Of a stretch of 64,000 nucleotides of DNA, positions 7,510-47,260 are shown piece after piece. Position 1 is the stretch's first letter. Each line of letters starts with the position of its first letter. Source of the DNA: Octopus vulgaris (Eukaryota); the NCBI GenBank assembly GCA_951406725.2, contig OX597818.1:73842001-73906000 (forward strand), in the 5' to 3' direction. The translations under genes were made by a program, and so were the position numbers. The notes under the pieces are model-generated. The model was given only the letters and a program-made list of their open reading frames with translations. It had not been told where the DNA came from and searched no databases.

Positions 7510-9450
7510 ACCACCTTGAAGAACCACATAGTGAAGTTTAACAAAAAACTGTACATGCAGGTTCAAGGTGCAGCCATCGGTGTCGGTGTAGCTGGCCTCT
7601 TCATGACCTGGTGGGACAGAAAACTTAAACAAATGTTAGCAGAACAGTCCACAACCCTTCTACTCTACAGCAGATGTGTAGATGACATTAATATCATAGT
7701 TAGGACCAACTCTAGTGACGGTAATGTAGAAACTGAGAAATAGCTAACTCCATCCACCAAAGTAGCAAGGTAATTATAGATTACCCCACTAAGCACCCCA
7801 ATAATAGACTCCCTATACTTGATACTGAACTTTGGTTAGGAACTGTGAACAATAGAGTGCAGCTCCTCCACTCCTATTACATGAAACCCATAACTTCAAA
7901 ATATGTTATTCACAACAACTCAGCTTTGTCACACAACATGAAAATTAACATACAGATAGCAGACTTAGTTAGAATAATGAACAATGTGTCCCCACTATGC
8001 GAACCCTATGAAACGAAAAAACATATACAGAACTTCATGCACCGCATGAAGTTCTCTGGATATGATCAGAAATTAGGGTTCGAATATACAGAGGGGCTAG
8101 AAAGAAATTAGACAACATTATACGTACTGACACCAGTGGTACCTGCCCTAGATATAGAAACAAAGAATGAAATAGAATACGAAGAACTTGTGCCAAAGCC
8201 AACAGGGCGAACAAGTGGTATAAAACGTCAAATATCAAGGTGTGATGTTTGTAGAGGTGACAGCCCACGGAGAACTAGCCCGTAGAGTTAGAAAAGTTCT
8301 GAAGGAGACCAAACTCAACATTAAGATAGTTGAAAAGCCAGGGAACTCCGTCAGATCACAGCTATGTAGGACTTACCCCTTTGAGAATACCATATGCACC
8401 AATGATAACTGCATGGTATGTAGGATTAACCCTGGCATTAACTGTAGGACTCGAAATGTAGTTTACAACATATAATGCATAGAACGTGCTTGTAAAGACA
8501 TGAACATGATGTACATAGGGGAAACATCTAGGAGCATTGCGGAACGACTAAATGAACATCTGAGACAATATGACAACAAAAAACAGTCCTCCATACTCAT
8601 ACTCTATCAACACGCAAAATACCACCATGAAGACAAATTGGGTCAACTAGATATCCGCATCTTATACAAGCACCCAAAATACCTAACACTCAGACAAATA
8701 CATGAGTACTTCCTTATAAATGAAACTTCCCCAATACTAAATAGGAAATATACATAGATACTATACCCCCATACCCACAGTTTACACAGGTAAAGTAGAA
8801 AAGTTAATGGGCTGTTATGTAGATAGATATATATATATATATGTGTGTGTGGGGTATATATGTGTATATGCACATGTATGTAAGCATATAATTATAAAAA
8901 TAAGCAGATCAACATACAGACGGATAGGTGCATAGGTTATATGAACTGACAAGCACATATACGCAAATGGAAACTGAAACTCATGACCATATATACACAT
9001 ACACTTTACTTCACACAAGGACACATATAAGGACACGTGTCCACAGATGGCACATAGTTGCAAAACACAACCACACAGACATGCATACATAAGGAAGGAG
9101 GCAGGTGCATACGTATGTGAACAGACGCTCTCATACACACATACATAACAAATACACAAACACGGACATGCAAGCACATGTATATGCAGAATACATACAT
9201 ACAGATGCACACACATACATGCAAATATACATATGCATACACACATATATACATATACACACGTGCATATATGCATACATACATGCATGCATAGCCACAA
9301 ACAAACACACACACACACATTGAACCACAAACATGCGCACAAACAAACAAAAAGGAACGCAGTGTAAACAACGGACATAGTCAAGACTTGAAAAGGTTGC
9401 AAGACGCAACGAAAATTTTATGAAAATAAAAATAAGGAACAAGGAATTTT
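7510..9450 (+). mobile_element. Penelope-like element (RT plus C-terminal GIY-YIG), 5'-truncated and degenerate, with 3' pseudo-LTR
   Basis: KFNKKLYMQVQGAAIG...LFMTWWD...YSRCVDDINII (RT); HSYYMKPITSKYVIHNNSAL (thumb); CRTRNVVYNI and MYIGETSRSIAERLNEH (GIY-YIG). A hammerhead remnant lies at 9388-9420 and a donor-like ggtgagt at about 9454. Confidence 0.9.
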
Positions 9451-9568
9451 ACCGGTGAGTGTGTTAAATTATAAGATACAAAAAGAATATGACTCTCCCC
9501 AGACGCAACAGAATATGCTTCAACACACGAACTCGCATATAGAATCTTGCAAACCAAATCCTAAAATG

Positions 9569-9612
<44 letters not shown>

Positions 9613-10498
9613 ATTCAAAATACACATGCGTGCGTGTGTGTGTGTGTGCTTGCGCGCAAGAGAAGGTGAGAAAGAGAGGGTTTATAGAGATGAGACTGAT
9701 AAACCTATAAATACTATTACCTATCTTTACATACCTACATATACACGCCCACGGACGTATTCACAAACATACACACATACATAAGCTTCTTTGTATGTAT
9801 ACACATGCTTATACACTCCGTGCACACAATATACACACGCGCACGCATATGCAGGTATATATACATGCATAGATTCATACATGCATACATACGCATATAT
9901 AATTAGACATATGTTTATAAAACCTGTTAGCTCACTCAACACCTGTTTTTTTTTGTTTTTGTTTTTTTTTGTCACTTTTCTTTTATCTTTCCAGACATCA
10001 TTTTTCATCAGACCTCTTCTTTCATCTTCTGAAGGTATTTCAATTCCCCAGCTGAGTTTTCTCGTATATTATATTGTCAATCCGCTAGTTATTTCAAATC
10101 CTATTTTTCCACGCCTTTGGGCTTGTTTAATCAATTCATGGACTTTGTATAAATTACAATTTTATGTTATTTTTTGTATGCTAAAGTTTTACTCCTTTCC
10201 TAAAAGACTAAAACTAGGTTCGTAAAGTTTACGATATTTCGTAATTGAATTTGTTTTCCGAAAATTTCATCTAAAACAAGTGTTGAAAGCTCGTAAAAGT
10301 TATAAGCACTTCTGCTAATTTCGCATTGCTTTGCCTTTGAACATATTCCCCAAAATGTTGAAAAATATAAGCAACGCAATCTTATGTAATGAACGAATTT
10401 GTAACATTTATAACATTCGTTTTTCATGAGGGAAGTAAGGTTACAACAACAATAACGACAACGACGACTTCAACAACAACTACATTAATACTAATGGT

Positions 10499-11000
10499 AA
10501 GAAGAAGGAGAAGAAGAAGAAGAAGAAGAAGAAGAAGAAGAAGAAGAAGAAGAAGAAGGAGGAGGAGAAGGAGGAGAATGAGAAGAAGAAGAAGCAGAAG
10601 AAGAAGAAGAAGCAGAAGAAGAAGAAGAAGCAGAAGAAGAAGAAGAAGAAGAAGAATAAGAAGAAGAAGAAGAAGAAGAAGGAGGAGAAGGAGGAGAAGG
10701 AAGAAGAAGAAGAAGAAGAAGAAGAAGAAGAAGAAGAAGAAGAAGCAGAAGAAGAAGAAGAAGAAGAAGAAGAAGAAGAAGAAGACGAGAAGAAGAAGAA
10801 GAAGAAGAAGAAGAAGAAGACGAGAAGAAGAAGAAGACGAGAAGAAGAAGAAGAAGAAGAAGACGAGAAGAAGAAGAAGAAGAAGAAGAAGAAGAAGACG
10901 AGAAGAAGAAGAAGAAGAAGAAGAAGAAGAAGAAGAAGAAGAAGAAGAAGAAGAAGAAGAAGAAGAAGAAGAAGAAGAAGAAGAAGAAGAAGAAGAAGAA
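10499..11000 (+). repeat. ~500 bp (GAA)n microsatellite with interruptions
   Basis: Direct reading. It accounts for the poly-R/K/E and poly-L/F/S ORFs. Confidence 0.98.
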
Positions 11001-12617
11001 CTCTTATATGGATGATCTAAAACTATGCTACAAATGCTAAACGGCTGAAAAAATATTACTACATACCGTACATGGATTTGCCAAAGAAATTGACACGACA
11101 TTTGACTTAGAAAAAGGTGCGAAAGCAACCTTGAAACGAGGAAAACTAGTTAAGAGTAACAACATCGTACTAGATAAAACAAATGAAATAAGGGAATTAG
11201 GCCAAAGCCAGACCTACAAATTCTTAGGAGTCAATCAACTAGATACGATTCAACATAAAAACAGATGAGAGAGAAAACAAGATAGAAATACTATAAGCAG
11301 AAAACAGAGCTCAAGGCGAGAAATAAGATAATAGGTATCAACACATTAGGCGTCCCAGGTACAAGTTACAGCTACAATATTTTTTAATGGACTTTAAATG
11401 AACTAACTAAAATAGTCGGGGAAACAAGAAAAATAATGACTAAATTTAGGATGCAGCACTAAAAACCTGACATAGAAAGGTTATATTCACAACGTATTGA
11501 AGGTGGTAGAGGCCTTATACAGCTAGAAAACTGTTATAAAGTAACCACCATAGGATTACAAAAATACCTTCTTCTTTATAAACAAGGTAAACTAATACAA
11601 ATAGCCAAAACAATAACACGAGTAAATCAAAAAACGGTTTTCTGTCTTTAAGGAAGACGAAAAATATAAAAAAGGAGTCATAGTACCTCACAGCTATGAA
11701 GTAAAAGAAGAAACAACAAAAACTATAAAACAACTGAAATCCAAACTAATACTCGAACAACAGCATATCGTGGTAAACCGATGGCAAGGAAAGCACATTC
11801 ATGGCAAATGCTGGGTTAAGCTAAACAGAAAAGGTATAGACAAAGCAAAATCCCAACAATGGCTGAGAAGTTCAGAACTTAAAGCAGTGGCTGAAGGATT
11901 TTTAACTGCAGCAAAGATCAAAGCCTTCCTACCAGAAATTACAAATTAAAAGTAACAATAATTATATAAATACAAGTAACTGCAAAATATGTTGTGATGA
12001 AGAAGAAACAATAAATTATATTGTCTCGGGTTGCCCAGTCCTGGTTAAGAAAGAATATATTCACAGACCTGAGAATATATGCACTGGAAGGTATGCCAAC
12101 GCAATGAAATGACAGCAGAAAAATAGATGGTATACGCAAAACCCAGAAAAGATCACAGAAAATGAGGGATATGCCAATACACGCAGATAGAGAAATCAAG
12201 GATAATAGACCGGATATAGATGTCAGAGATCACAAAGAAAAATGCCAACTAATCAACGTATCAATATCAACATATTACAACGTTTCTCTAAAAGAAGCGG
12301 AGAAACTTTCAAAATGCAAAATCTGGAAATAGAGGTAACTCCAATGTGGAGCCTAAAATCAGAAACAATTCTTATAATAGTAGACGCTCTGGATATGATA
12401 GGAAAACATTTAGACAAATACATAACCAAAACACCAGGATTTACAAGTGTATATAAGATATAGAAAATGGCACTAGTAAGAACCGCACACATCCTACGTA
12501 AAGCACTTTCAATACAGTGAAAATAAGAAAACCACAGCAAACTACAGCACTTACCCTAGGCACACATAGTTGAGCTCAGTAGTGCAGTAAAAGCACGTGA
12601 TAAAAATAAGACTACTC
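11001..12617 (+). mobile_element. R4/Dong-clade LINE, 5'-truncated within the RT, 3' end in (TAA)n
   Basis: Starts at ctcttatatggatgatctaaaacta (YMDDLKL motif). Contains KHIHGKCW...SQQWLRSSELK, a CKICCDEEETINYIVSGCPVL Zn knuckle, NRPDI (RLE) and KYITKTPG...RTAHILRKALSIQ, then a short 3' UTR and TAA repeats. Confidence 0.92.
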
Positions 12618-12655
<38 letters not shown>

Positions 12656-14345
12656 GTGACATCTAGAGCAAAGACAAGGAGCACAAGAAGGATGCTGAAT
12701 GGTTGCAACAACTGAAATAAACAGTAGTCTGTCCAAAACAGGAAGAACTCTTCATTTCAGTTAAGGAAGTGAAGGAAATCAGCCCAAAAATGGACAATTG
12801 GAAGGCTCCCGAACCAGATGGTGTTCAAGGCTACTGGATCAATACATGCACGAATATCTGTACAACTCGATTAAGTAACACCAGACAGTTAGACAATGGG
12901 AAGGTCTGTGCCGTGCTTAGAAAACATCGAAAAAGGCAATACGGTAGACAATAACAGGCCGATATCCTCCTTGCCATTTATGTGGAAATTTTGATTGGTA
13001 TAGTCGCCGAGTCAATGTTCGAACATCTGGAAACGAAATGGATTCCTACCACATGAGCGGAAGGGTTGCACGCGTAAGTGCAGAGGTACCAAGGATCAAC
13101 TCCTGGCAGACAAAACTATACTTATGGATTGCAAGAGGAGGAAAAATAACTTTTCCATGTCATGGATCGAATTTAATTGGTATTGCATCAAATGAAGGGA
13201 CAATCGAAATCAGGCGAGGCATCTTCCAGGGAACTGGAAGATCTTTGTACTGAGGAAAGCAAAGTCTGTATAATCTATTCAAGAGCCGCCAATAAAAAGT
13301 CAACCACTTATTATTCATGGATGACCTCAAACTGTGAGGTAAAGATGAATCCCAACTCAGTTCCCTCGTTGATATGGTGTAAACTTTCAGTACTGATATC
13401 AGAATAGAGTTCGAACTGAAAAAGTGTGGTGTGTTAGACTTCAAGAGAGGTAAAATCAAATGTATGGACGGGATAGCGATACCGTCGGGAGAGGTTATGA
13501 AGCAGATAGAAGAGACGGGTTATAAGTAATTGGGGATACTGGAAATGGATAAATTCATGGAGAAAGGAATGAAGGAAAAATTTTAAGGCGGAGTGCTTGC
13601 GCAGACTGAGACTGATCCTTATATCGAAATTAAACGGTCGGAATAAGATTGAAGCTATCAACACCTGGGGGATACTCCACCCAAAACGTAACACAGACAG
13701 ACTGTGTGTACCAAGAAAAAAAGGAGGGAGTAGTACTGACTGGAACCGAAAACAGCATTAGAGCAGATGGAAACAACATAGCATGGTATGTAAAAGTTTC
13801 CACTGAACCATATAGAATTGTATAGGATGGAAGATTGCAAATATAAAGCACTGTACAAGGACTTGAGAATGAATGAAACTGAAAATAGATGGATAAAGAA
13901 AAGAATGCATCGACAATTTCATGGGGCTGTTGAAGACAAACAGAGATGAAAGATTGCTATGGATGACTAAAAGTGATTTAAAACGGGAAACGGAGTCTCC
14001 AGTCTGTGTTGCCCAAGAGCAAGCATTAAGAACGAATTACAGAAGAGAAAACATATCAGAAAGTGATAAGTGTAGATTTGTGAACAAAATGACGAAACCA
14101 TATTACCAGTCAATGTACGCCACTAGCACAGAAAAAATATAATAGACGCCATGACAATGTAGCAAAGATTCTTCATTAGACACTTTTCAACAAGTACGGA
14201 CTTGACAGAGGAAAATAGTGGTACGAACATAAACCCGAAGGTATCATCGAAAATGATAATGCAAAGATCCTTTGGGATGTTATGATTCAGTGCGACCATG
14301 ATAGAGAATAGGAAACCAGACATAGTGTTAACTGAGAAATGAAGC
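12656..14345 (+). mobile_element. Second R4/Dong-clade LINE (different subfamily, internally deleted), beginning at the TAA tail of the first
   Basis: KMDNWKAPEPDGVQGYW; IRRGIFQG; NHLLFMDDLKL; LWMTKSDLKRETES..CVAQEQALRTNY; RHDNVAKILH; WYEHKPEGIIENDNAKILWD; KPDIV. Confidence 0.9.
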
Positions 14346-15164
14346 AAAACTATCTCTATGAAGGTATCTGTAATTTTCATTGTTCAAGATATGACTACTT
14401 CAATTGGCTACTTCTTCCCTACAATTGAACACATATCTTTCAAAACGTATACCCAGTCTTTGTTCTCTATTTCACCTACTTGACCATACCTTACAAAAAC
14501 TGGCTATTTGCAGAATTTAAATTAATGAAGATAGTTTTTAAAAAACAATGAAAAAAATGTCGCGGTTTTCAAGGAAAGAGGGAAATAAACTTAGTTATGG
14601 AACTCTATAAGATAATCTTTGTCTGGTAGAAGTATTCATTTTAAGAGAGTTATATTGTACCGTATGTGATGAAGATAGAAGTATAAAAACATTCAAATTT
14701 GTATTAATGCTCCCATACTTTTAAGAAATTATGATAAGAACAGAGTTTTACTCTCAAACCCTATCATGTTCACTTTAATACTTATCTTTCGTATCACTTG
14801 AAATTTTATGCAGCAAAACAAAACATAGGTATAAAATTAATTGCTTTAATTCAATTGGTGGGCTTCAACTTTAACAGCTTTATGTATATAATAAACAGAT
14901 ACATATTAAGGGGCGAAAATCTTTTCACACTGTAAAGATTGAAGCACCATCTTAGTATTGTAGCCAACATCATCACCAGTAATATGAAGGTGAAATTTTA
15001 TTCACACATATATATCAATCTATCTATCCATCTATAAATATATATAAGAAGTTTACTTTCCAACCACATGCTGCCGAATTCATTCTCACTGCTTCGCACC
15101 TTTGGCAATTGTTTTCAAAACCTCGTGAGTGGTTTTGGTGAGTTGAAACTGAAGGAAGCCCGTC

Positions 15165-15210
<46 letters not shown>

Positions 15211-15260
15211 TAAAAATATAAATATATGAAAGAATGGAGTTGGACGACGAATTAACAAAA

Positions 15261-15358
15261 TTCCTTTATTTTCGACATATGTTTCGAAGGCTGCATATTC
15301 CTAATTGCGAAGGAATAAGAGTATATTATGCCGCTTTCTCATCAGGAAAAGCAAGGAA
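15261..15358 (-). ncRNA. Type I hammerhead ribozyme (left-arm copy)
   Basis: Reverse complement of 16299-16396 with an identical core. Confidence 0.85.
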
Positions 15359-16298
15359 CTTATGTCAACATCAAGATGCACAAACAGACTTTTAGATGAC
15401 TGCTCACACGGAGCCCATAGCGATAATGAGTGTCTCTTTAAAAAATTCCTTTATAAGGAGTGACGTCAAAATGGTTGGATGTAGAAAATTCTAGAAGGTT
15501 CTAAAGCTTCAAGGGTTCAAACGAAGTAGGGGAAGAGAGATATAAGAATAGGAAGGTGAAAGGGTGCAGTTCAAATGAATGGTGAATTTTCTTTTGTGAA
15601 TGAGTGTCTGTGTGTGTGACTGTATATAACTGCATTAATGTGCGTGTGTGTGTATGTGTGTGCGTGATTGTGTTTGTGGATGGGTGGATGTCAGAAAACA
15701 GACAGTGGTGAGGAGAACGGTTTGTATCTGTGAGTTTGATTGTGCTTACTATAGATAGAGGGAAAGAGAGAGAGAAAGAGAGAGAAAGAGGAGGGCGAGG
15801 TATAGGGACAAAGGTAACACATACCTCACTGGATTGGGTAGTAGTTCTTTGAAAGTATAAAAAGAATTTTTTGACTATGGGGGTGAAATATATAAAAAAA
15901 GAGTTATATTAATTAAAATTCAAGGGGCTATCTATATTAATCATTATTCATATGATTGAAAGGTGTGTTTTGCCAATGCATGCATCTGTAGGACGTCTCG
16001 ACGATTGTATTTATTAAAGGGACTTTGGCGAACAATAGTCAGAGAATTTGCCGACGATATTACAATTAGTAGTAATGATAATAAGATGAATAGTATCGTG
16101 ACCTTCCTACTCTTATGCCTCTCTTCCCCTACTTCGTTTGAACCCTTGAACCTTTAGAACCTTCTAGAATTTTCTACATCTAACCATTTTGACGTCACTC
16201 CTTATAAAGGAATTTTTTAAAGAGACACTCATTATCGCTATGGGCTCCGTGTGAGCAGTCATCTAAAAGTTTTTTGTGCATCTTGATGTTGACATAAG

Positions 16299-16396
16299 TT
16301 CCTTGCTTTTCCTGATGAGAAAGCGGCATAATATACTCTTATTCCTTCGCAATTAGGAATATGCAGCCTTCGAAACATATGTCGAAAATAAAGGAA
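16299..16396 (+). ncRNA. Type I hammerhead ribozyme
   Basis: Stem I ttttc/gaaaa plus cctt/aagg; CTGATGA at 16312; stem II gaaagcggcata...tatgcagccttc with an inner tattcct/aggaata; GAAA; palindromic stem III ACATATGT; GTC cleavage triplet at 16381-16383. Confidence 0.88.
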
Positions 16397-16579
16397 TTTT
16401 GTTAATTCGTCGTTCAGCTCCATTCTTTCATATATTTATATTTAAAAAAAAACATACAAATTTCCACACGAAGGCACGTAACTTCAAACGTGTCTTCTCT
16501 GATGTGAATTTGCTACCCAGGTATCGGTTAACCGAATTATCCATAACAAGATAATTCATTCTACTACTATATATATATT

Positions 16580-16635
<56 letters not shown>

Positions 16636-16922
16636 CACATATTTCTATGTGTGCCTTTGTGTTTGAGTTTGTGCCCCCATCCCTTACTTGACAGTACATG
16701 CTGTGTTTATGTGCCTCTAACTTGCCGTTTCGACAAAGGAACCCGATAGAATAAGGAGCAGACATACAAAGAGTAAGTCCTGGAGTCGATTTCTGCGACT
16801 AAATGGAGGTGCCCCAGCATGGCCACAGTCAAATGACTGAAACAAATACGAGAATAAAAAAAGGAAAGGAAAATATACATACATACAAACATACGTACAT
16901 ACATACGTGCATATATATATAT

Positions 16923-18676
16923 AGTTGAAATTTACAGAAAAACAAAAGACGAAGACAGGTGTATGAACGAAAGAAGGCAGGTGTATAAACAAAATAACAA
17001 GTGTATCAGTTTAACGCTCGGGACGGTGAGAAAGTCTTCTACGTTTCGAGACTGCGATCTTCAACAGAAAGGAACACGATGAAATAGCCAGACAAAGAAA
17101 AGAAACTTTTGGAGTTAGCAGTCAATCATGGCTGCTGGCTGAACAAAGGTAGTTAGATAGGAGAGCTAGGAAGAAGGAGGCATAACAAAGTATTGGTGAT
17201 CCCAAAAACAAAGGTTCGTGCGCGATAGTGTGTACGTGTGGTGAGGCGTTGGTGACTTGGACGTATGGATTATGGTGTGTGTTCTGGGAAGTGGTCAGTG
17301 CTAGTGTGTGCGGTGTGAGGTGGTGATGTGGTGTGGTGGTGTGTGGTATGGTGTGGCGGTGTTGGGGTGTGGAGATCCGAGGATGGGGAAGTGATGGTGG
17401 GTGTGGGGTGAGGATGTGGGGTAGGAGTGGGGTATGTAGGTGTGGGATGTGTAAGAGCGGGGTGTGGATGTAGTAAATATCGATGAAGGGAGTGGGCGGG
17501 TAAGAATGAAGAGAGGAAATAGGTGTCAGATGAAGAAAGGAGAGGAGGGAAGTCAGATGAAGAGGGGAGGAGAGATGAGCTCATGTGACACAAAGGAGCA
17601 AAGATAGAAGATTGTTTCCTGGTCACGGCAAAGGCTGGAGTCCAGATGGCACTTCTTCAGAAACAATCTGAACACAGACAAGTGTTGTAATGAATGACGG
17701 CAGAGCGGAAATGGCGCGAGACCGGGGTGTCATTGCCGAGTCTAATGTCTAAGAAATGCTCCGCGAACTGGTCAGCCAAGCGGCGTCCCGTTTGACTGAT
17801 GTGCAGAGAAGGACAGAAAGAACAGGAGATATGGTAATTGACCTTGCTAGAAGTGCAGGTAAACGAGTCAGTGATATGATAGGAATGATGATAGGTGCCT
17901 GAGACGATGGTGGTGTTGGAGAGGTAAGGGCAAGTGCTGCAGCGTGGGCGGGAGCAGGAGAACGGGCCAGACTGGGAGGAGGGGTTGCGGAAGAAACTGT
18001 GGTCCAGTATGTTACGTAGTTTGTGAGCTCGTTTGAAGGAGAAGAGGGGCAGATATGCGAAGTAGAGTTGTCGGACTGGAGTCGCTGGAATGTTCGGAGA
18101 ATGGTGCGTGCGTTGGAGGGGCAATGTAGAGGGGTGGTAGGTGAGGGGAAACGTGAGACTGGGAACGGCGGTGCGGGTGCGGGGAGAGAGAGCATAGGCA
18201 CGGTCCACGGAATGTGCTCTGACAAGAGCGATGTGGATAATGGTGAGGGAATATATCCACGAAGGAGTTGAGACTGAGTCTCAAAGTCATGTTTGTCACT
18301 GCAGAGCGTGTGCCCACGGAGGAATTGGGAGTAGAGGGTTGTGAGCTCGGGTAGGACAGGAGGAGGAGAAGTGGTATTATGAGTGTGATTGGGTATGTTT
18401 GTAGTGGATAGATGTATTGAGAGTGGAGTTGTGTATGTTGAGCGAAATGTCAAGAAAGGTGACAGAAGTGTTGTAAATGGTGCAGGATAATTCTACGGCA
18501 GGATGGAAGGATTGGACAAAAGAGAGGAATCAGTATAATTGTTTGTGGGAGAGCGAGGTTGCACCGATACAGTCATCAATATAATGACCGTATACCTCGG
18601 GGTTGGGGCCACTGAATGTTGAAAATATTTGGGCTTCAATGTAGCCAACGAACAGATTCGCATATTTGGGACTCAA
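16923..18676 (-). mobile_element. Penelope-like element (Neptune/Poseidon-type RT plus GIY-YIG), 5'-truncated, with 3' pseudo-LTR
   Basis: PKYANLFVGYIEAQIF...YGHYIDDCIG (RT); YSQFLRGHTLCS; CSRPRCSTC...ITDSFTCTSSKVNYHISCSFC..LHISQTGRRLADQFAEH (GIY-YIG). A degenerate minimal hammerhead lies at 17034-17075. Confidence 0.92.
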
Positions 18677-20576: not shown

Positions 20577-20614
<38 letters not shown>

Positions 20615-22826: not shown

Positions 22827-22955
22827 ACAAGATATCCTTAGTGATGTAGTACGACCGTTTCAAGTGGCTCCATTTATTTGAACAATGCAATCATAGTTCA
22901 ATTAAGTGGAGCCGCTTGAAAAGGTCGTATTGCATCACCTCTGAATATCCTGTTG
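22825..22955. repeat. ~130 bp hairpin, probably an inverted duplication of a PLE pseudo-LTR end
   Basis: gtgatgtagtacgaccgtttcaagtggctccatttatttgaac pairs with gttcaattaagtggagccgcttgaaaaggtcgtattgcatcac. Confidence 0.8.
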
Positions 22956-25674: not shown

Positions 25675-25722
25675 CATTTCAGTACCGGTTTCGGTCATTT
25701 TGAGACCTTTTCAACTGTAACG
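25675..25722 (-). ncRNA. Minimal type I hammerhead ribozyme, U3-A8 core variant
   Basis: Minus strand reads cgttacag TTGAAAA GGTC tcaaaat GACC GAAA CCGG TA ctgaaatg. Stems I and II pair, stem III is the palindrome ACCGGT, and the cleavage triplet is GUA. Confidence 0.75.
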
Positions 25723-36030: not shown

Positions 36031-36145
36031 ACATATGTACATACATAAAAAAGTAAAGGATACGTAATTTAGAAATCTAAATAAAATAAGATTTAAATTT
36101 AAATAATGTATATATATATGTATATATGTATGTATGTATGTATGC

Positions 36146-36184
<39 letters not shown>

Positions 36185-36392
36185 TTATATATTATATATA
36201 TATATATATATATAGCATATGTATATATATATGTATATATATCATACGTCATATATGCCACATACGGACCGAGTATATATATATATATATATATATAATA
36301 CCAACGAATATATATGGCGTATATATATATATATATATGCCCTGTCCTACATTCAGATGGCTATATATATATGTCTATGTATATATAGATAC

Positions 36393-36460
<68 letters not shown>

Positions 36461-36462
<2 letters not shown>

Positions 36463-37302
36463 AGAATGATTTGCACCATAATATCAGATACAAACACCCA
36501 ACACACATGTCTCCAGGAACTCAGAACTACACTCATAAATAGGAATTATCCACAACACCTAATAGACAATACTATCCAACGAGCACCGAAATTAAATATA
36601 CAAAACCTGAGACAACCAAAACCAAACAACGAAGAAAAATTTAAAACCCTACATCTCTACACACAACCCACTTAACAATGAGGCTTTAGCACCATACTCG
36701 AAAGCACAGCCCTACTCAAGGGGGACCTAAACATGAACCGAATCTTCCAAATGTGCACCATCATAAAAAGTAAACGGCAAGCAAAATCATTAAAAAAGAT
36801 TTTAACCCAGGCTACACTGCACCCAATAACAACCACAAAATCAACAGTTAGAATATGTGGAAAGTTCAACTGCGGGATCTGTGTCCTCTTAGTAGAATGT
36901 TCGGAATACATAATAGAACAAGGCCATCATTTTACCATCAGAACAAACTTCACCTGTAATTTACGTGATAACATGCGCAGGGTGCAATAGGCAATGTATT
37001 GGCCATACAAAGTACAGACTACGAAAAAGGATGGCAGTGCATAAATCCCAAATTAGGAATCCTGAATATAGGAAAATACCTCTCAGAGGCCACATAGACA
37101 GATGTGCATCAAATAAAAATCCCAAATTCACAACTTTCCCACTTTACCAATTCAGTAACAACGTAACTGTCACTCAACGTCATAACAAATAACTCCATTT
37201 CATTAGAAAATTCGGACCAAGTCTAAACGCCCTGGACCTGGAACGTTAAAACCATAAAGCAAAATGGAATTCTACAACTCCAGTTCCCACTACCACCACG
37301 AG

Positions 37303-37353
<51 letters not shown>

Positions 37354-37401
37354 TGCTATTACTATAGCTAATGAACTACTGCTTACTCCAACCACCACAG
37401 T

Positions 37402-37449
<48 letters not shown>

Positions 37450-37900
37450 AACTACTACGACTACTACTACTACGACGACCAACAGTCTTCCGATGCTGCT
37501 GTTAACGGTCACTTCCACTGCTGCTGCTACTACAGGCAATGAACTACTGCTACAACTCTAACCATCACCACCACGATCACTACTGCTACTACGATAAACG
37601 GTCACTGCTACTACTGCTATTTCGGCCACCGTTCATTTTCACAATTACAGCCAACGAATCTAGTCAACGCACAGGACAGCCATTATGTTCCCCCAACAAA
37701 ACACCACCATGTGGACTCTGTTGAGAGTAGTTAGAAACAATTATGAACATTTTTATTACATTTAACTTTTAAAAATATTTTTGATAGGGTTCGTTTTTTC
37801 GAGAAGAACCGAAGCGTAAAATCTCTAAGAAAACTAAAATTTATTTTATATAGTGGAGTTTTCAAACTTCTTTTTTATAAATATATACCCACTCGTATGC
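36461..37900 (+). mobile_element. Penelope-like element 3' part (thumb plus GIY-YIG) and pseudo-LTR
   Basis: RMICTIISD...[14 protein letters not shown]; IIKSKRQAKSLKKILT...CGKFNCGIC...TNFTC; ITCAGCNRQCIGHT..RLRKRMAVH. A degenerate hammerhead lies at 37777-37822. Confidence 0.88.
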
Positions 37901-37925
37901 CACCTACACATTTTATATATATATA

Positions 37926-38828
37926 TACTGGCAGCTAAGCCCGGCTTTACCCGGTGTGTTTGGATGATGTGGCTGTGATCTTTTTCGGTTAGGCATAGTC
38001 TATTACAACCTTATCTTTTTGGGTCCCATGTTTCGATTGGACCCTCCAGCTGTATGAAAATTTCCTGAATCCCCCCACTTGTCAGAAAACAGCTTCAGGA
38101 GATGTGAAGAACGATTTTGTATGTAGTCTGTTTCTGAGAGCTATTCTATTGGACCTCTATCTAATCCTTAAAACATTGATTTAATTATGAACATAGAAAG
38201 AAATCATACATTAACCCCTATTTTTGTAAGCAGTTGTATCCGTAAAAATTTTATTTGCAGAAAGCAGAAATAGAAAGAAGATACATGAAATGGACTTGTG
38301 TGTGTATATATGTGTGTATGTGTGTGTGTATCAGTGTGTGCATGCGTGCTCATCATATAAAATTTTTACAATAGTTGATTTATGGAAAAGATCATATTAA
38401 ATTTTTGAAACGCAAATATGTGAATGAAAATTAAATTCAGAACTCTACATGGTAGCTAGACCAGGTAGCAATTGCAGCCAAATCTCCCTAAAAATATCCT
38501 ACTGTCTTAATCCGACAATTCTGCCTATTATGTAGCTTTAATGAGAAACTTTAACTTAAGATTATTAAGATTAAAAAGATTATTAATCCCACAAAGAGAT
38601 GAAAGAAGAGAGACAGCATAGCGAAAGCTTTGGCTGACTGTCATCCTGTACTCCCCTTGTTGCTAGTGAAATTGTAAATGCCGGCTGAGTGAGCAACTCG
38701 ATGTTTTAATGACAGAAGAGACAGGGGAATTCTATTAGAAAAGTTTTTATCGATTTTCTCGGTAACTATGGGGGCTAGGAAAATAATACAAACCGCATTC
38801 CAGTCTATGCACCCATCTTCATATATAT
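37926..38828 (-). mobile_element. Probable non-autonomous Helitron
   Basis: The minus-strand end ...ccgggtaaagccgggcttagctgccag resembles a Helitron 3' hairpin plus a degenerate CTAG. The other end lies in a TA-rich tract. No ORF. Confidence 0.4.
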
Positions 38829-38906
38829 GTCATTTTTCACGCGAATCCACCCAGCCGTTTGGCTGTGAACCTCATGACAAGAAAGAATACAACAAAAGAA
38901 TGCAAA

Positions 38907-41900
38907 ATGACATGCTTAGGATGTGGTAACCGTTATATTGGACAAACAGGAATTTCACTCCGTCGAAGAACCACCATTCACAAAGGGCAAATCCGCCACC
39001 CACAATACAGACAGTTACAGGTTAGTGAACACATAGATAAGTGTGCCAGGAACATTAATCCTAATTTCCAAATCTTCCTCTTCTATCAATGTTCACAGAA
39101 CACCACAATGCAACAAACGTTGAATAAAGAGGCATTTTTCATCAATAAATATCTCCCCCAACTAAATATGAACACACAACTTAATACAGAACACCACTAA
39201 CCCTTCAATTAAAACCACTAGCCCTTATACACTCCCTACATCATTCACATTACAATTCTATATCAAAATCCAGAACTACTTACCTCCCTTACAAATAATA
39301 TTTTCTCTCAGGAACTATTAGACGTGACACCGTTTATTAGCCGGTGTTTATTCAAAGCAATGAATAGCTTTGACGAAACCATGGCATGCTTTGCTTTCTG
39401 ACTTTTTAATCATCTCATAATAATGACTTTTATTACTATCTCACTCCATCTAAATGTATATATCTCTCGTTACCTTTCATAAAATGCCTTTTCTTTTTTT
39501 ATTTACAATGTGCATTTTCGTTGATTTTTTTCTTATTTTCCCCTTACATTTCCACGTGCATTTTATATTTTCTTTTTGTAACATATTTCTACTCTATTTC
39601 ACTACACGGGAGATTGAAAATGCCGCAAAATCCAAAACTCTGCAGTGAAAACTCTCAACGAAGAGACCCTTAAGGAACTGAAAGAGATTAACACAAATTT
39701 GAGACTTTTAATCAGCAAGATTGAAGAATTCACTTGCTTTACACAAGAGGCAAAAGAAAAAGAAGAGAAAGAACATCCTCTGGAACAACTCAATCAATAT
39801 TTGTCCGAATTATGCACCACTCTTCACTCTTTACCTCATAACAATTCTCTAAATGAAAATCCCCTATAGATGATACACAAGACAGCAATCCCTCCACACT
39901 TACACTATCTATTAAAAACCGCATTATCCACATATGGAATGAAAAACTTAAAGCCAGAAAATTTTCATTCTGGAATACGATTAAAAACAACTACAAGGCA
40001 GAAATCTACGAACGCTTGCTAAACTCTACACCAATAATTTTGCCTCGTAAATTCCAAATTAAACATATTCCAAACGAGCAAGAAACAACAAAGACAATTA
40101 AGAGAGAAACTAACACTGGAAAAAATGAAGACACAAATAGAACTCCTTAAGCTCAGAGTGCTAAGCAATGAACAAAAATTTAAAAACATAGATGAGGAGA
40201 ATTACAACGAACTACAGAAACAAGCAGATGGTCCTCGCTTGGAAAGTGTTTTTAAACTATGGAAAACAACTTGCGTGGATGAGGAAACCAACTCCTTACA
40301 ACGCTGTGATAAACAAGCCAATTTCTTTAATAACTACGGAACTCAGTTTAACATAGAAAACGCATCGAATAACTCCTTCCTGAAGAAAAATTAACGAAAA
40401 ACATACACAGAAATGACCCCACGTGTATCTAACACAAACCACAGACGGTCTGAGGGACACAACTCTACCATCTTCAACTCTCTTACTCCCCCAAATAACT
40501 ATCAAACAACTATCAATAATTAAACCCACAGTAGGAAATCTAGACACAATCCTCAAGGTATCCTACATACAAATCAATGATTTCATCGAAACCTCCAGAC
40601 TAACCTATATTTTGGGGAACCAATTCCTACAAAGAAGAACTTACCTCCGAGACTTTACACCCAACATAGCTGCCTCAACCAGTCAACTAGACAAAACCTG
40701 ACTAGATAACATAAATTCTCCCTCCACCAATATTACAATATTAAAAATCAATTAAACCCAAACCACATCAGCCACAGACGATATGACAACCCTCGGTACA
40801 ACCATAATCCAGTACGCTACACAGACACTTCACAAACACACTACCATAGACACACTTTACACCCATTTTTTCCTCAGCAAACCAAACAAAATACACACCT
40901 TCCACATCAATCCACCTACTACCACCATTTTTAGATGTAAACCAGAGAAACAGAGATGTGAAATGGAACAAAATAAACAAGACCAACCGAAAATAATCAA
41001 CCTGCCAAAGAAAATCCTGAGTTTTACGCAAACCAAAATCCTAGCAAGAGGTTTAAAATTTACCCCTACCCCACGCAGATCGAACCCAAATAAAATTAAG
41101 GACAATACTATGGATTTCTGCCGAAAATTACGCCTCAACTACACCAGTGGGTTACATAGAACTGAAGTTATACCAATCATCACTAGAAAAATATGGCGCC
41201 GCTTTTAATTGCTATTTAAAGGAGAACTGGAAGAGATATTTGGATGATTGCTTTATACTTTCGAAAGACAGCATGGATAAACTCCTTGATTTCAAATTAA
41301 TGCTTCACAACATACATAGTAATATACAATTCACTATGGAACACAACAATAAACAACTCCATTTTCTAGACATCTTAATTAAAATAGTTAACAACCACAT
41401 GGAAACAGATATTGTTTATAAACCCACAGATTCTAAACAATACCTATTATTTAACTCTTAGCACCCCAAACACATAAGAATTAATATACCATTTAATCTA
41501 GCGAAAAGAATCTGTACCATAGTTTCGGATACATATACACGTGAACAAAGACACCTTGAACTTAGATCAACACTAACTAAAAGACATTACCCAATCTCAT
41601 TAATAAATGAAAGCATTAAAAGATCTAAGGAAATAGATACACAAATATTAAGGCAAGCCAGCCGAAATACTAAACCAGACTTAAAAATACTCCCGTACAT
41701 TTCCACACGTAACCCTAGAAACAACGAAGTCTTCAAAATTATCACCCGAAATCTTCCCATCGTCACAGCAGCAAAACAATGTACAAAATTATAAGCTCAT
41801 ACAAAATTATAAAAAGTAAAAAGCAACCGAAGTCACTGAAAAAACATTAACCAGCGCAAGACTATATCCACTAACAACAGAACCAAAAGTGAAAAAATGT

Positions 41901-42710
41901 GGGCGTCCTAAATGTGGAACATGCCCCCACCTTTTGGAGGGTTCAGAATTTCACTTCAAACAAGGAGAAATATTTAAGATCAAATCAAATTTCACGTGCG
42001 CCTCGGAAAATATAATCTATGACATGCTTAGGATGTGGTAACCGTTATATTGGACAAACAGGAATTCCACTTCGTCGAAGAACGACCATCCACAAAGAGC
42101 AAATCTGCCACCCACAATACAGACAGTTACAGGTTAGTGAACACATAGAAAAGTGTGCCAGGAATCATAATCCTAATTTCCAAATATTCCTCTTCTATCA
42201 ATGTTCACAGAACACCACAATGCAACAAACGTTGAATAAAGAGGCATTTTTCATCAATAAATGTCTCTTCCAACTAAATATGAACACACAACTTAATACA
42301 GAACACCACTAACCCTTCAATTAAAACCACTAGCCCCTATACACTCCCTACACCATTCACATTGCAATTCTATATCTAAATCCAGAACTACTTACCTCCC
42401 TTACAAATAATCTTTTCTCTCAGGAACTATTAGACGTGACACCGTTTATTAGCCGGTGTTTATTCAAAGCAAAGAATAGCTTTGACAAAACCATGGTAAT
42501 TTTTCTTTCTGACTTTTTAATCAACTCATAAGAATGACTTTTATGACTTTTATTACTACCTCAGTCCATCTAAATGTATATATCTGTCGTTCCCTTTCAT
42601 AAAAAGCCTTTTCTTCTTTTATTTACAATGTGCATTTTCGTTGATTTTTCTTATTTTCACCTTACATTTCCACGTGTATATTATATTTTCTTTTTGTAAC
42701 ATATTTCTAC
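38907..42710 (+). mobile_element. Near full-length Penelope-like element in partial-tandem arrangement (~700 bp direct repeats 38907-39605 and 42019-42710); ORF decayed with a central RT deletion
   Basis: Duplicated MTCLGCGNRYIGQTG..LRRRTTIH GIY-YIG end; N-terminal region from 39645; ILARGLKFTPTP...FCRKLRL; GYIELKLY...WKRYLDDCFIL...FTME...FLDILI...TDIVYKPTDSKQYL. Confidence 0.93.
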
Positions 42711-42753
42711 TATATATATAAATATTCATGTGACCGCATGTGTATCGTTGGCG

Positions 42754-42811
<58 letters not shown>

Positions 42812-42849
42812 GTAAAATATATAAAAAGCGATTTATACATATTTAGACA

Positions 42850-43067
42850 TATTTGTTGGATGACCGTTGACTACTCATTAGTTCCTCCATTCTTTGACTG
42901 TTCATACTTTTCGCCCAGCATGGTGTGCAACAATCACCCACCTCACCAAGCAAGCCTAGCGTGATTGCTAGTTGAGTCGCCGACGACCCGACCCTGCAAC
43001 AGTGAGTACTGGATTACATGTTACTAGTAGCACTCAAGAGTGACCAGACAGTAGCTCTCATGAGCCC
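42850..43067 (-). repeat. Short copy of a non-coding repeat related to 45353-45890
   Basis: The reverse complement gagtgctactagtaacatgtaatccagtac...gggtcgggtcgtc...gcttgcttggtgagg matches 45361-45455. Confidence 0.7.
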
Positions 43068-43577
43068 ATAATACACACGTACATAAATACATATATTGTG
43101 TGAGTGTGTAAAAGAGAGAGAGAGAGATGAATTAAAGAGACTGTATCTGTACTTTTCAAAGTGATACAGAAGGGTGAATAGATCTTGATATCTTGTAATG
43201 GAACTTAAACGTTCATTCTTTTATTTATGACCTTCACTTTTTAATTCGCATACATCTAGACACAGCCAGTCATTTCTAGACGGCATCTCTTTATCATAAT
43301 GTTAAATTTACTTCCTCGTCCATTTTGTCCTCACACATGAATTTTTATTCATTTATTTATGGTTCCGTTGTTCATATTTGACGTCTCGATAAAACGGTTC
43401 CTTCTTGTTCTTAGCACACACTGAAGATTTACTGAATGTAACAAACCTTTAGAAAAATTGGAAAAGTACAGTCTAAGCATCAGTGATCTCTTCTCTAATT
43501 TTGAATATCGTTTGTTCTATTTGCACTAATATTATTATTGTTGTTATTGTCGTCGTTACTGTTGTTATTATTATTAA

Positions 43578-43626
<49 letters not shown>

Positions 43627-43699
43627 AGTTGTAGTAGTAGCAGTAGTAGTAGTAGTTTTATTATTATTATCATTCTTATCATTATCACTATTATTATTT

Positions 43700-43747
<48 letters not shown>

Positions 43748-43986
43748 TTGCGAAGATGACATTATGGAATATCACGGTTTGTTCACATTTAGAGTGTTGG
43801 TGAAAGCTTACAATTTTTGTTTGTTTGATTCATTTTCTCTCCACTAAGGATGATTGATGGGAAAACAGGATATATAAAACAGTATATAAAATCTTCATAA
43901 AGACTATATATAACAAAATACACGCACATTTAACGAAAACTAAACCGCCTGCTGTTTGAACAGAGACCGGAGATATAGACGTGCGC

Positions 43987-44017
<31 letters not shown>

Positions 44018-44179
44018 AGTGCTCGTGTTTCTTATTTATACGTGTGTTTATGTACACACATGTTTGTGTGCGTATATATATATATATGTATATATATGTA
44101 TATGTATGTAAATATATATATATATGTTTAAGTATATATGCATATGTATACATATATACATACACACACACACACATAC

Positions 44180-44245
<66 letters not shown>

Positions 44246-44586
44246 TTACATATACCCGCCTCATAGTTCTATAGAAATCAACCGATGGAAGTAAAAAGTC
44301 AGAGTGACAGAGTAAACAGTGCGGGACTGGATGAGACAAGAAATTGATCTCAATGCCTCTTACTCTCTCTAATGCTTTCAAACCAATCAACGATCAATCG
44401 TTATTTGTGTATGTGTATGTGTGGGAGAGAGAGAGACAGAGAAAGACAGAGAGTTAGAGAGAGAGTTTTATCACCGCGTATAAAATGATGGAATACTATG
44501 GTAAATATACTAGCCAAATTGTACGTATCACACGTTATTTATAATACTGAAAGAAGAATGATGTATGTATTAATTCGTCTCCATGT

Positions 44587-44623
<37 letters not shown>

Positions 44624-45047
44624 GTAATAGAGTGGATCTGTGCAATTTTGTGTGTTTGTGATTGTGTATTTTATGGGGCGATGGGAACTGTTGACGTTGA
44701 AGAAGAATTGGCTGAAAGAGACGAGTCATATGGGTCATTTTGAAATGTGCGTATAGTTGCATAGTAACAGACAAATTCTATACTGGAATATATCAACTGA
44801 AAATAAGTTGATGCTAAGTGGTGAATGTGGAGATAAATAGGGATGTTTGTAGGTTTGTCTATTTACAGAGAGGATATATTACAGAGAAAGTGAAGAAAAG
44901 TTTTTAGAAAATAAAGAACAGAGAGTAAACAAGAACGACATGATGAGAGACATGGGGAGATATTTATTGTAAAGATGAAAGTTTTAACGATGACGAAATA
45001 GGATGTGTGGAATATATGTAAGGAAGGGGAGAGAAAGAGAAACAGAG

Positions 45048-45100
<53 letters not shown>

Positions 45101-45352
45101 GATAGCTACATATATATGCTTCACATTTGTACCTGATTTGCAAGATCTTTTATATATGAATACGTGTGCTGAAGCACATATTGTGTCTGGGGAAAATCGT
45201 ATTGTCTTATTGCGTTATTATCTAACGCACTCACTGGTTCGATTTCCACCTTTATCGGAGCTGCGTTGTCTTTTTTTTACTGTCTGTACACATGTGTGCT
45301 TGTGTATGCACATATGCATGTAATGCATGTATATATATATGTGTATGTCAGA

Positions 45353-45895
45353 ACACTTTCGAGTGCTACTGGTAACATGTAACCCAGTACAACCTGTTGC
45401 ATGGTCGGGTTGTCAGACACTAAACCGGCAACCCACCAAGCTTGCTTGGTGAGGAGGGCGTTTATTGGACACCCAGCGGGATGAAAAATGAAAGCCGTCG
45501 AAAGGCGGAGAAACACTTGAGAGTCAACCCCCATCCAATAAATGTTTTAAGGCTGTATCATGCGCGGGGACATAGAAATAATCGAACTGAATACCCGATC
45601 GCGCGGTTAAACCATTGGGAGTGAAGGACTCCTAGCCTTTGTTAGGCCATCCTTTTGCAGAAGGTAACTCAGGTAACTTGGATAACTCCGACATAAAACC
45701 TGCTGCTCAATGGTTACCGATGATGTTGACTTGTTCTTCTTTTCGGATAATGGCTGTTGTTGCTTAGTAAGTGGGATTGACTCAGTGCACAGCCTTTCCT
45801 CACTTTAAAAAAATCTTCTTGCACAGGCATTGCACAATAACAACATTGATTAAGCTTCGTGCAATGGCCATACTCGATAAGGAGGGGGCAGCCAC
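45353..45895 (+). mobile_element. Non-coding repeat resembling an RTE-type 5' UTR (possibly a non-autonomous derivative)
   Basis: Contains an agaaggtaactc...aaaacctg motif like the RTE 5' UTR at about 35.9 kb. No ORF; sits in a microsatellite. Confidence 0.45.
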
Positions 45896-46309
45896 AATAT
45901 ATGTATGTATGTAAAAATTATGTATGGTTGTGTGTACGTATGTAAGTATGTATGTATGTATGTATGTATGTATGTATTCTGCATATTCATGTACTTGTAT
46001 GTGCATGTCCGTTTGTGTATGTGTGTGCGTGTTTTTCCCTGTATGTGTGCTTGTCTCCCTACATTACCTACATACCTATGTCTTTATTACCTATGTATCT
46101 ATCTATTTACTTACATATCCATTTCCTACACACTGACACGCAAACACACACACATATATACTACATACGTATATTTATATATATATATATCAATATATAT
46201 ATATATACGGATATATGTATATGTATATATATTTGCATGCATAACGGCCTACTAGAAAATGATCTTACGTATGTGTATTTTTGGGTGTTGGGTTACCATT
46301 ACCTTCTAG

Positions 46310-46620
46310 ATGTATTTCCTATTTAGTACCGGGAAAATTTCATTTGAGACCGTACTCCTGTATTTTTCTGAGTGATGGGTCCTTCGCATAAATGCATATG
46401 TCAAGTCAGCTTAGTATGCTTCTATGCTGGTCTTTGGCCTGTTGGTAGAATAAGGAGGACTGTTTTTTGTCATCATATTGCTTCAAGAGTTCATTTAATC
46501 TCCGCAATATTTCTAGATGTTTCTTCAATGTATGTCGTGTTTTTTTTTTTTTTTAGAAGTACACTCTATGCAATTTTTTGCACTATCCAGTGGGAATGAA
46601 TTTCAGTAACTATTAAGATA
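46310..46620 (-). mobile_element. GIY-YIG C-terminal fragment of the same PLE family as 7510-9450
   Basis: Manual translation TYIEETSRNIAE.LNELLKQYDDKKQSS...PVLNRKYI, compared with MYIGETSRSIAERLNEHLRQYDNKKQSS...PILNRKYT. Confidence 0.8.
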
Positions 46621-47260
46621 ATGTACTTTTAGTTATGGATGAATTAAGTTTAGCTATAACCTTTCCATTCTTATAAATATCAAGTAGCTATTTAACTTGC
46701 TATGTGAACGTATGTGCACCAAACCACACGTATGCGTATACTTACATCTTCATGGAGTCTTGTAAGAGCGAGTGTATAGGGCTTTTCGCGAAAATCCCTG
46801 TGCGTGACGGAAAATGAATCACATACAAGTTGAGCGAAACTCAACAAAATGAAAAAATTGTTTTACTCTCTTCTTTTCTTATTTCTCTCTTTTACCTCAG
46901 TATGATCCAACTTTTAATAATCTATAATTTTTATATTCCTTACCAATCATTTTTGATATTATCTACCCTTCCCCTCATTGAATTTTGTGAATATTTAATC
47001 ATTTGAACATCTTTTCTATTTCGTAATTTTGAATTTTTTAAATCTGATTGTTTTGTATACGTTTGTACCATTGATAAAAATGATAATTGTTGAAACTAGT
47101 TGTATGTAAATAAATTTATTTAAAAACAATTATATTTTTCTCAATTTCAGGTGCATTTTCAGAGACAAATTCTCCTATATGCATATATCATTCAACTACG
47201 GTAGCAGTTGAATAATATTCTTAACACCGCAATTTACTCATACGCAACACCTTCACAGTG

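What the first reader, a model, noticed from the sequence alone, without database searches (positions are those of the whole stretch)
9380..47110. The U3-A8 hammerhead core recurs at four loci with unrelated flanks
Seen: 9388 (+) TTGAAAA g gttgc-aagac-gcaac GAAA attt TA; 25714 (-) TTGAAAA; 37781 (+) TTGATAG ggttc...gaacc GAAG cg TA; 47071 (+) TTGATAA ... GAAA ctag TT. Each has a different palindromic stem III (AAAATTTT, ACCGGT, ACGT-like, ACTAGT), and two lie downstream of GIY-YIG ORFs from different PLE families. Inference: the variant core may be as common as the canonical one in this AT-rich genome, which would be an under-counted ribozyme class. Three of the four copies are individually degenerate.
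Basis: partly seen in the sequence, partly recalled or inferred. Interest (0 to 1): 0.75.

Follow-up and report, generated by a model that had tools for sequence, protein, structure and literature searches.

The report
U3-A8 hammerheads in Penelope retroelement tails
Four different jumping-gene families in this animal genome carry a small hammerhead RNA motif, predicted to cut itself, in which the usual core C-G pair is U-A; this variant is already published and here makes up a large minority (about 10-40%) of such motifs, not half.

Summary
The four motifs are at the stated coordinates. Each is a copy of a different high-copy repeat: the 3' end (pseudo-LTR) of a Penelope-like retroelement. 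In each family the majority sequence is a minimal type I hammerhead with U3-A8, paired stems I and II and a palindromic stem III. Only the copy at 25714 is intact. The variant is known: Cervera and de la Pena 2014 counted about 1,300 U3-A8 against about 2,000 C3-G8 motifs in Schistosoma. 'As common as canonical' is not supported. U3-A8 makes up 9-27% of motifs in an even 1.6-Mb genome sample and 38% with one genome-wide pattern (6,608 against 9,650). Across families, positions 3 and 8 are almost always Watson-Crick. In a fifth lineage they vary independently, and a U3-G8 wobble is the commonest state, a likely stepping stone. Contigs of three runs guessed to be RNA show A-to-G hyper-editing across the family-2 core. 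Cleavage is untested. The scan noted related 3:8 swaps elsewhere in this genome before.

The parts
7408..8754 (+). Broken Penelope-like ORF (RT, thumb, Cys linker, GIY-YIG remnants) of family 1, ending about 630 nt upstream of site 1
   Evidence: collinear ORF remnants in other family-1 loci (L006, L010, L011, L025); only distantly alike to the family-2 RT
9385..9421 (+). Site 1, family 1 minimal type I hammerhead: U3 9388, A8 9393, stem II 9396-9410, GAAA 9411-9414, palindrome AATT 9414-9417, U17 9418. Stem I is broken in this copy
   Evidence: 29 of 30 fetched copies U3-A8, 13 of 30 structurally intact
25680..25717 (-). Site 2, family 2 intact minimal type I hammerhead: stem I CAG/CTG, U3 25714, A8 25709, stem II GGTC/GACC, palindrome ACCGGT, A17 25683
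   Evidence: 1,953 exact 28-mer matches genome-wide, first 100 listed all U3-A8; Rfam HH9 19.7 bits against gathering 52; near-full element L302 with 784-aa RT+GIY-YIG ORF
36490..37228 (+). Broken Penelope-like thumb, linker and GIY-YIG remnant of family 3, ending about 550 nt upstream of site 3
37777..37822 (+). Site 3, family 3 minimal hammerhead: stem I ATTT/AAAT, U3 37781, A8 37786, stem II GGTTC/GAACC. This copy has A9G and A15.1G
   Evidence: 30 of 30 copies U3-A8, 13 of 30 intact
47065..47106 (+). Site 4, family 4 minimal hammerhead (old family): U3 47071, A8 47076, palindrome ACTAGT 47095-47100, U17 47101. Family stem I is ATACCA/TGGTAT; this copy lacks part of the 3' strand and has a damaged stem II
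   Evidence: 43 of 49 copies U3-A8, 4 of 30 intact; same-strand ORF remnants upstream in 6 of 31 family rows

Best explanation
The four sites are copies of four Penelope-like retroelement families whose 3' pseudo-LTR carries a minimal type I hammerhead motif with U3-A8 in place of C3-G8, predicted to self-cleave as a dimer. Shown: family membership, the U3-A8 state, paired stems I and II, palindromic stem III, position about 0.55-0.8 kb downstream of RT/GIY-YIG coding remnants on the same strand, and a minority share of 9-38% among this genome's motifs. Inferred from published work: two motifs in a tandem transcript pair through the palindrome, and cleavage after N17 frees element-length RNA for retrotransposition. 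The U-A pair keeps the 3:8 Watson-Crick contact of the active fold. Inferred here: U3-A8 arose more than once, likely by two transitions through a U3-G8 wobble. Most genomic copies are 5'-truncated and decaying. Transcripts across inverted pseudo-LTR pairs are likely hyper-edited by ADAR, which would destroy the core.
For: Family alignments and structures. Strict descriptor on 1.6 Mb: C-G 11, G-C 5, U-A 4, A-C 1, other 12 states 0; shuffle means 0-0.33. Wide descriptor: C-G 71, U-A 10, G-C 8, A-U 6, 12 non-pairing states 19 in all; shuffle means 0.4, 3.0, 1.0, 2.9; C/U by G/A odds ratio 79, p 2e-8, copies not independent. Same-strand PLE protein hits upstream in 6/31, 9/31, 4/30, 6/31 rows against 0, 1, 0, 3 on the other strand (the window copy is counted twice in family 1). 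Near-full element L302 with RVT_1 and GIY-YIG. Published U3-A8 minimal hammerheads in PLEs, natural U3-A8 covariation and earlier in vitro activity. One clade for U3-A8 weakly rejected, p-AU 0.046. Sister repeats L304 (C3-G8) and L305 (U3-A8) are 88% identical.
Against: No cleavage data. In families 1-3 the core is no more conserved than the flanks (0.97/0.97, 1.0/0.98, 0.97/0.96), so selection is visible only between families. In the L304/L305 lineage the first 100 of 452 matches are U3-G8 54, C3-G8 21, U3-A8 18, C3-A8 7 (hand tally; odds ratio 1.0), so a lineage can spread without a Watson-Crick 3:8 pair. Of 71 C3-G8 sample hits, 22 have U4C and 14 have A6U, so core changes are widely tolerated. 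Family 4 has one nucleotide too few between core and stem II, or one too many before G12. The family-1 palindrome AATT is too weak to duplex alone (+2.2 kcal/mol). The careful tree did not force more than one origin. Published minimal motifs cleave poorly even as dimers.
Confidence: 0.75

Rival explanations
1. The motifs are hammerhead-derived but largely vestigial. C3-G8 drifts to U3-G8 and U3-A8 by transition and CpG bias in an AT-rich genome, and the elements move without cleavage.
For: Independent variation of 3 and 8 in the L304/L305 lineage with U3-G8 dominant, and C7-G8 is a CpG there. Abundant U4C and A6U subfamilies. Naiad elements spread without canonical hammerheads (PMC8557442 passages).
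Against: Across families non-pairing 3/8 states are at shuffle level while pairing ones are enriched. G3-C8 needs two transversions, which AT bias does not give. Stems I, II and the palindrome differ in sequence between families yet always pair. The young, coding-competent family 2 has a perfect motif.
Confidence: 0.2
2. U3-A8 is as common as C3-G8 in this genome and is an unrecognised class.
For: In the window, 4 U3-A8 sites against 3 C3-G8 sites found (15345, 16312, 17067). Genome-wide short-stem pattern gives 38%. At least 7 U3-A8 families seen (four here plus H05, H18, H26).
Against: Even sample: 4 against 11 (strict), 9 against 35 (wide, UGA core only), 10 against 71 (wide), 18 against 117 family copies. 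Already described with a similar ratio.
Confidence: 0.04
3. Chance matches of short AT-rich words.
For: 60 TTGA.AA heptamers in the window. Three of four window copies fail the descriptor. Shuffles give 3 U-A hits per 1.6 Mb with the wide descriptor.
Against: Family majorities restore the stems that the window copies lack. Same position relative to PLE ORFs in all four families. Pattern count 6,608 against control 890.
Confidence: 0.01

Closest known systems
Minimal type I hammerheads (min-HHR) of metazoan Penelope-like elements, including the U3-A8 variant of Schistosoma mansoni (Cervera and de la Pena 2014, PMC4209133; read parts 1-3 of 4 and supplement passages)
   Same: Location in pseudo-LTRs, short stem I, palindromic stem III, solo and inverted copies, and the U3-A8 core itself (about 1,300 hits against about 2,000 canonical).
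   Different: Different host. At least 7 families in at least two distant PLE lineages. Stem II is mostly 4-5 bp and three of four families lack the extra nucleotide after A9. Family 4 has an odd stem II junction. The supplement passages I saw list only C3-G8 examples for molluscs; one supplementary file could not be searched.
Natural U3-A8 hammerheads (Perreault et al. 2011, PMC3088659; read section 8 and passages)
   Same: Same covariation, said there to be active in vitro (citing Przybilski and Hammann 2007, not held, not read).
   Different: Rare examples there; thousands of retroelement copies here.
Non-LTR retrozymes (PMC7229834, passages; bioRxiv 10.64898/2026.07.22.740005, part 1 of 5)
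   Same: Tandem units of about 360 bp with one hammerhead each at L303 (U3-A8) and L304 (C3-G8).
   Different: The four window families are dispersed ends of coding PLEs, not tandem arrays. No circular RNA evidence here.
Rfam Hammerhead_HH9 (RF02275)
   Same: Site 2 aligns core-to-core at E 0.0078 in a 131-base search.
   Different: 19.7 bits against gathering 52; no long stem I or loop-loop contact.

Membership tests
Minimal type I hammerhead of PLEs | Core N3-UGA-N-N8-A ... GAAA ... UH with a Watson-Crick 3:8 pair | tested here: met
   U3-A8 in 29/30, 30/30, 30/30, 43/49 copies; H17 = U, A, A, U. Copies were picked by likeness to the window copy; an unbiased list for family 2 gave 100 of 100
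Minimal type I hammerhead of PLEs | Paired stem I (3 bp or more) and stem II | tested here: met
   Stem I 3, 3, 4, 6-7 bp and stem II 5, 4, 5, 4-5 bp in representative natural copies
Minimal type I hammerhead of PLEs | Canonical spacing A9, stem II, G12 | tested here: inconclusive
   Met in families 1-3. Family 4 either uses A9 in the stem or has an extra nucleotide before G12
Minimal type I hammerhead of PLEs | Palindromic stem III allowing dimer folding | tested here: met
   AATT, ACCGGT, ACATGT/ACGT, ACTAGT; self-duplex +2.2, -8.3, -4.6, -4.8 kcal/mol; cofold pairs the palindromes for families 2-4, not 1
Minimal type I hammerhead of PLEs | Located in the 3' pseudo-LTR of a PLE | tested here: met
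   Same-strand RT/thumb/GIY-YIG upstream in a subset of copies of all four families; repeat ends 100-200 nt after the motif; inverted partial copies frequent
Minimal type I hammerhead of PLEs | Self-cleavage after N17 | not testable with these tools
   Only assembled contigs were served, which cannot show RNA ends
EN+ Penelope-like element with C-terminal GIY-YIG | Single ORF with RT, Cys linker (CX2-5CxxC) and GIY-YIG | tested here: met
   L302 784-aa frame: RVT_1 E 2.9e-8, GIY-YIG E 1.5e-4 (22.4 bits, cut-off 22.6), linker CGRPNCGIC. Linker defines Neptune and Nematis (PMC8557442 passages)
Neptune versus Nematis clade | Placement in an RT tree with reference elements | not tested
   No reference sequences on hand. 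Families 2-4 group together and family 1 is far off
Canonical (tertiary-stabilised) type I hammerhead, Rfam | Gathering score; 6-bp stem I with loop-loop contact | tested here: not met
   HH9 19.7 against 52 bits; no hammerhead match in L303-L307

The most novel reading that the evidence does not exclude
This genome records the evolutionary path of a ribozyme catalytic pair in action. Penelope-like lineages repeatedly walk C3-G8 to U3-G8 to U3-A8, the wobble intermediate itself spreads as hundreds of copies, and the host's ADAR hyper-edits the A-rich U3-A8 core in transcripts of inverted pseudo-LTRs, switching the ribozyme off.
Probability: 0.3. Interest if true: 0.6.

Novelty: new member of a known kind. 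Interest (0 to 1): 0.33.

Why it matters
The variant itself is known, so the finding mainly adds a host with thousands of copies and several lineages. Its value is as a test bed. A young, coding-competent family with about 2,000 identical U3-A8 motifs, and a lineage holding all four C/U by G/A states on one scaffold, make an open question directly testable: do minimal hammerheads of Penelope-like elements need to cleave for the element to move? Descriptors fixed on CUGANGA would miss 10-40% of motifs here.

Tried and rejected
Whole-window Rfam scan: the 150 listed of 302 matches held no hammerhead, nearly all microsatellite hits to miRNA models; the rest were not shown. First descriptor with stem I of 4 bp or more found nothing in the window. 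Pfam on 14 window ORF fragments: no RT or GIY-YIG hit, one weak DUF hit. An apparent second family-2 copy at '38286' was a reverse-strand index of site 2. Family G26/F14 (G3-C8-like, window 39096 and 42208, minus) was dropped as antisense of a GIY-YIG ORF. H13, H15, H16 and H22 were dropped from family counts as chance matches in microsatellite or coding repeats. L032 was dropped from the second tree because its ORF is not family 2's; the long-branch H00 row and several near-duplicate rows were also left out (12 of 21 rows kept). RNA search: no holder on record as RNA; contigs cannot show ends or strand. Lunse et al. 2017 (PMC5785218) and Przybilski and Hammann 2007 (PMC1986816) are not held; I saw only their citations and a review's summary, and they may already cover more core variants. 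Searches: 'hammerhead'+'U3-A8' gave 1 paper; 'hammerhead'+'octopus'+'Penelope' gave 5 papers, 4 listed, none by title on this; 'hammerhead'+'A-to-I editing'+'Penelope' gave 0. Spelling variants were not covered.
Full report
Observation. The four heptamers are at 9388 (+), 25714 (-), 37781 (+) and 47071 (+). The word itself is common (60 in the window) and only site 2 passes a structure descriptor. The window lies in a 2.8-Gb animal genome rich in microsatellites.

Families. Searching the genome with each site gave four unrelated repeat families with 2543, 788, 1330 and 875 first-look candidates. I aligned the 30 best loci of each, plus 20 more for family 4. The majority sequences restore what the window copies lack. 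Family 1 has stem I CTA/TAG, a 5-bp stem II, palindrome AATT and U17. Family 2 has CAG/CTG, GGTC/GACC, ACCGGT and A17. Family 3 has ATTT/AAAT, GGTTC/GAACC, ACATGT or ACGT, and A17. Family 4 has ATACCA/TGGTAT, ACTAGT and U17, with a stem II junction that is one nucleotide out of register. U3-A8 is kept in 29/30, 30/30, 30/30 and 43/49 copies, and 13, 29, 13 and 4 of 30 are structurally intact. These loci were chosen for likeness to the window copies. An unbiased check for family 2 gave 1,953 exact matches with positions 3 and 8 left free, and the first 100 listed were all U3-A8.

Context. Copies share sequence from a few hundred bases upstream to 100-200 bases downstream of the core, and many have an inverted partial copy beside them. 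RT, thumb and GIY-YIG remnants lie upstream on the same strand in 6/31, 9/31, 4/30 and 6/31 rows, against 0, 1, 0 and 3 on the other strand. L302 is a near-full family-2 element: a 784-aa open frame with RVT_1 and GIY-YIG matches, the motif about 700 nt after the stop, and an inverted pseudo-LTR at its 5' side. This is the layout described for endonuclease-bearing Penelope-like elements (PMC8557442 passages).

How common. I took 160 evenly spaced 10-kb stretches, 1.6 Mb from contigs C1-C20, and tabulated all 16 states at 3 and 8. Strict descriptor: C-G 11, G-C 5, U-A 4, A-C 1, the other 12 states 0; shuffle means at most 0.33. Wide descriptor, allowing U4C, A6U, long stem II and junction extras: C-G 71, U-A 10, G-C 8, A-U 6, non-pairing states 19 in all; shuffle means 0.4, 3.0, 1.0 and 2.9. 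With the UGA core only it is 35 against 9. By family copies it is 117 in 18 C3-G8 families against 18 in 7 U3-A8 families (my sum; inverted pairs count twice in both; singletons left out). A genome-wide exact pattern for short stem II and AC..GT palindromes gave 6,608 (control 890) for U3-A8 and 9,650 (control 370) for C3-G8, or 38% after subtracting controls. That pattern misses families 1, 3 and most of 4, and also the U4C, A6U and long-stem C3-G8 families. So U3-A8 is a large minority. The window (4 against 3 found) is richer in it than the sample.

Do 3 and 8 covary? Between families, yes (odds ratio 79, p 2e-8, copies not independent). Within families 1-3 the core is no more conserved than the flanks, as expected for dead copies. 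Against my reading: L304 (C3-G8) and L305 (U3-A8) are 88% identical, but a pattern with 3, 7 and 8 free found 452 copies, and of the first 100 listed 54 are U3-G8, 21 C3-G8, 18 U3-A8 and 7 C3-A8 (hand tally; odds ratio 1.0). Collapsing neighbours gives 39, 8, 15 and 5 loci. C7-G8 is a CpG there, so some A8 copies are decay. Eleven copies at nine loci share U7 and A8 and look like a propagated subfamily. The wobble state spreads, which suggests a stepwise path and also that cleavage may be dispensable in some lineages. The 22 U4C and 14 A6U hits among the 71 C3-G8 point the same way.

Origins. On the thumb-linker-endonuclease region, families 2 and 3 are sisters (99/97) and family 1 is on a very long branch; starred branches did not force more than one origin. 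With 12 of the 21 rows, family 4 grouped with a C3-G8 family (SH-aLRT 98) and one clade for U3-A8 was weakly rejected (p-AU 0.046). The links of the non-U3-A8 motifs to their ORFs rest on single copies. More than one origin is likely, not proven.

Mechanism. Shown: the anatomy above. From the literature: such motifs are inactive as monomers, cleave slowly as dimers, and are proposed to release element RNA from tandem precursors (PMC4209133 parts 1-3; PMC6765202 section 11 part 2). U3-A8 keeps the 3:8 pair and was reported active in vitro (PMC3088659 section 8). Computed: the palindromes of families 2-4 pair between two molecules, that of family 1 does not. Cleavage itself is inferred.

Editing. 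No run on record as RNA holds the stretch. Contigs of three runs guessed to be RNA (X2, X3, X5; two studies) carry loose ends over site 2 that differ from the window only by T-to-C on the plus strand, that is A-to-G on the ribozyme strand. By my alignment X5 has 11 changes at 13 T positions and none at the other 17. All three change A6, A7, A8 and A9, and they differ from each other in loop 2. The five other runs laid (X9, X14, X15, X18, X19) list none. The edited 16-mer occurs once in the genome (control 2) against 2,507 for the unedited. This fits ADAR hyper-editing of sense transcripts, for which the inverted pseudo-LTRs would supply duplex. It lacks DNA from the same animals, and the runs may be from a related species. 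Hyper-editing of Penelope repeats is known in lizard and is high in octopus (PMC5625713 passages).

Comparison and verdict. U3-A8 minimal hammerheads in Penelope-like elements were reported in 2014 with about 1,300 hits against about 2,000 canonical. Rfam scores site 2 far below gathering and misses C3-G8 minimal motifs too, so under-counting is not specific to this variant. Lunse et al. 2017 could not be read and may cover more. The scan's earlier notes describe G3-C8 and A3-U8 swaps in this genome; I saw such motifs too. The finding is real, a new member of a known kind, with modest interest. The wobble lineage and the editing trace are the parts worth following.

Noticed in passing
window 53110-53166 (-), core at 53156: Intact minimal hammerhead with G3-C8 and a 9-bp stem I. 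Its family gave 5 strict hits in the 1.6-Mb sample, often as short inverted pairs.
   Followed up: partly
window 39360 (+) and 42472 (+): Two copies of one pseudo-LTR about 180 nt after GIY-YIG remnants. The first has A3-U8, the second is decayed; a sample copy (L212) has G3-C8. Stem II is very short.
   Followed up: partly
window 15345 (-) and 16312 (+): Inverted pair of identical C3-G8 hammerheads with a long stem II.
   Followed up: no
window 17067 (-); family H00: C3-G8 motif with A6U. The largest family in the sample has A6U and U4C subfamilies: 14 and 7 of 28 seeds.
   Followed up: partly
G000:C1:20002150-20003200 (L304), C1:23281650-23282450 (L305): Lineage of about 360-bp units, 452 pattern matches, with U3-G8 in 54 of the first 100; often tandem or inverted, retrozyme-like.
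   Followed up: partly
G000:C1:8134250-8135150 (L303): Tandem 361-bp units, each with an intact U3-A8 hammerhead and a 6-bp stem I: a candidate U3-A8 non-LTR retrozyme.
   Followed up: partly
window 25680-25720, runs X2, X3, X5: A-to-G hyper-editing-like contigs across the family-2 core; the edited form is essentially absent from the genome.
   Followed up: partly
L302 (G000:C1:26209750-26213750): Young near-full Penelope-like element with a 784-aa open frame and a 700-bp inverted pseudo-LTR.
   Followed up: partly
one search list, e.g. G000:C1:3182057-3182089: A further frequent family with a U3-A8 core and a stem II of only 1-2 bp before GAAACCGGT.
   Followed up: no
window 22853-22925: Short inverted repeat made of two partial copies of hammerhead family H17, without the core 5' half in register.
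   Followed up: no
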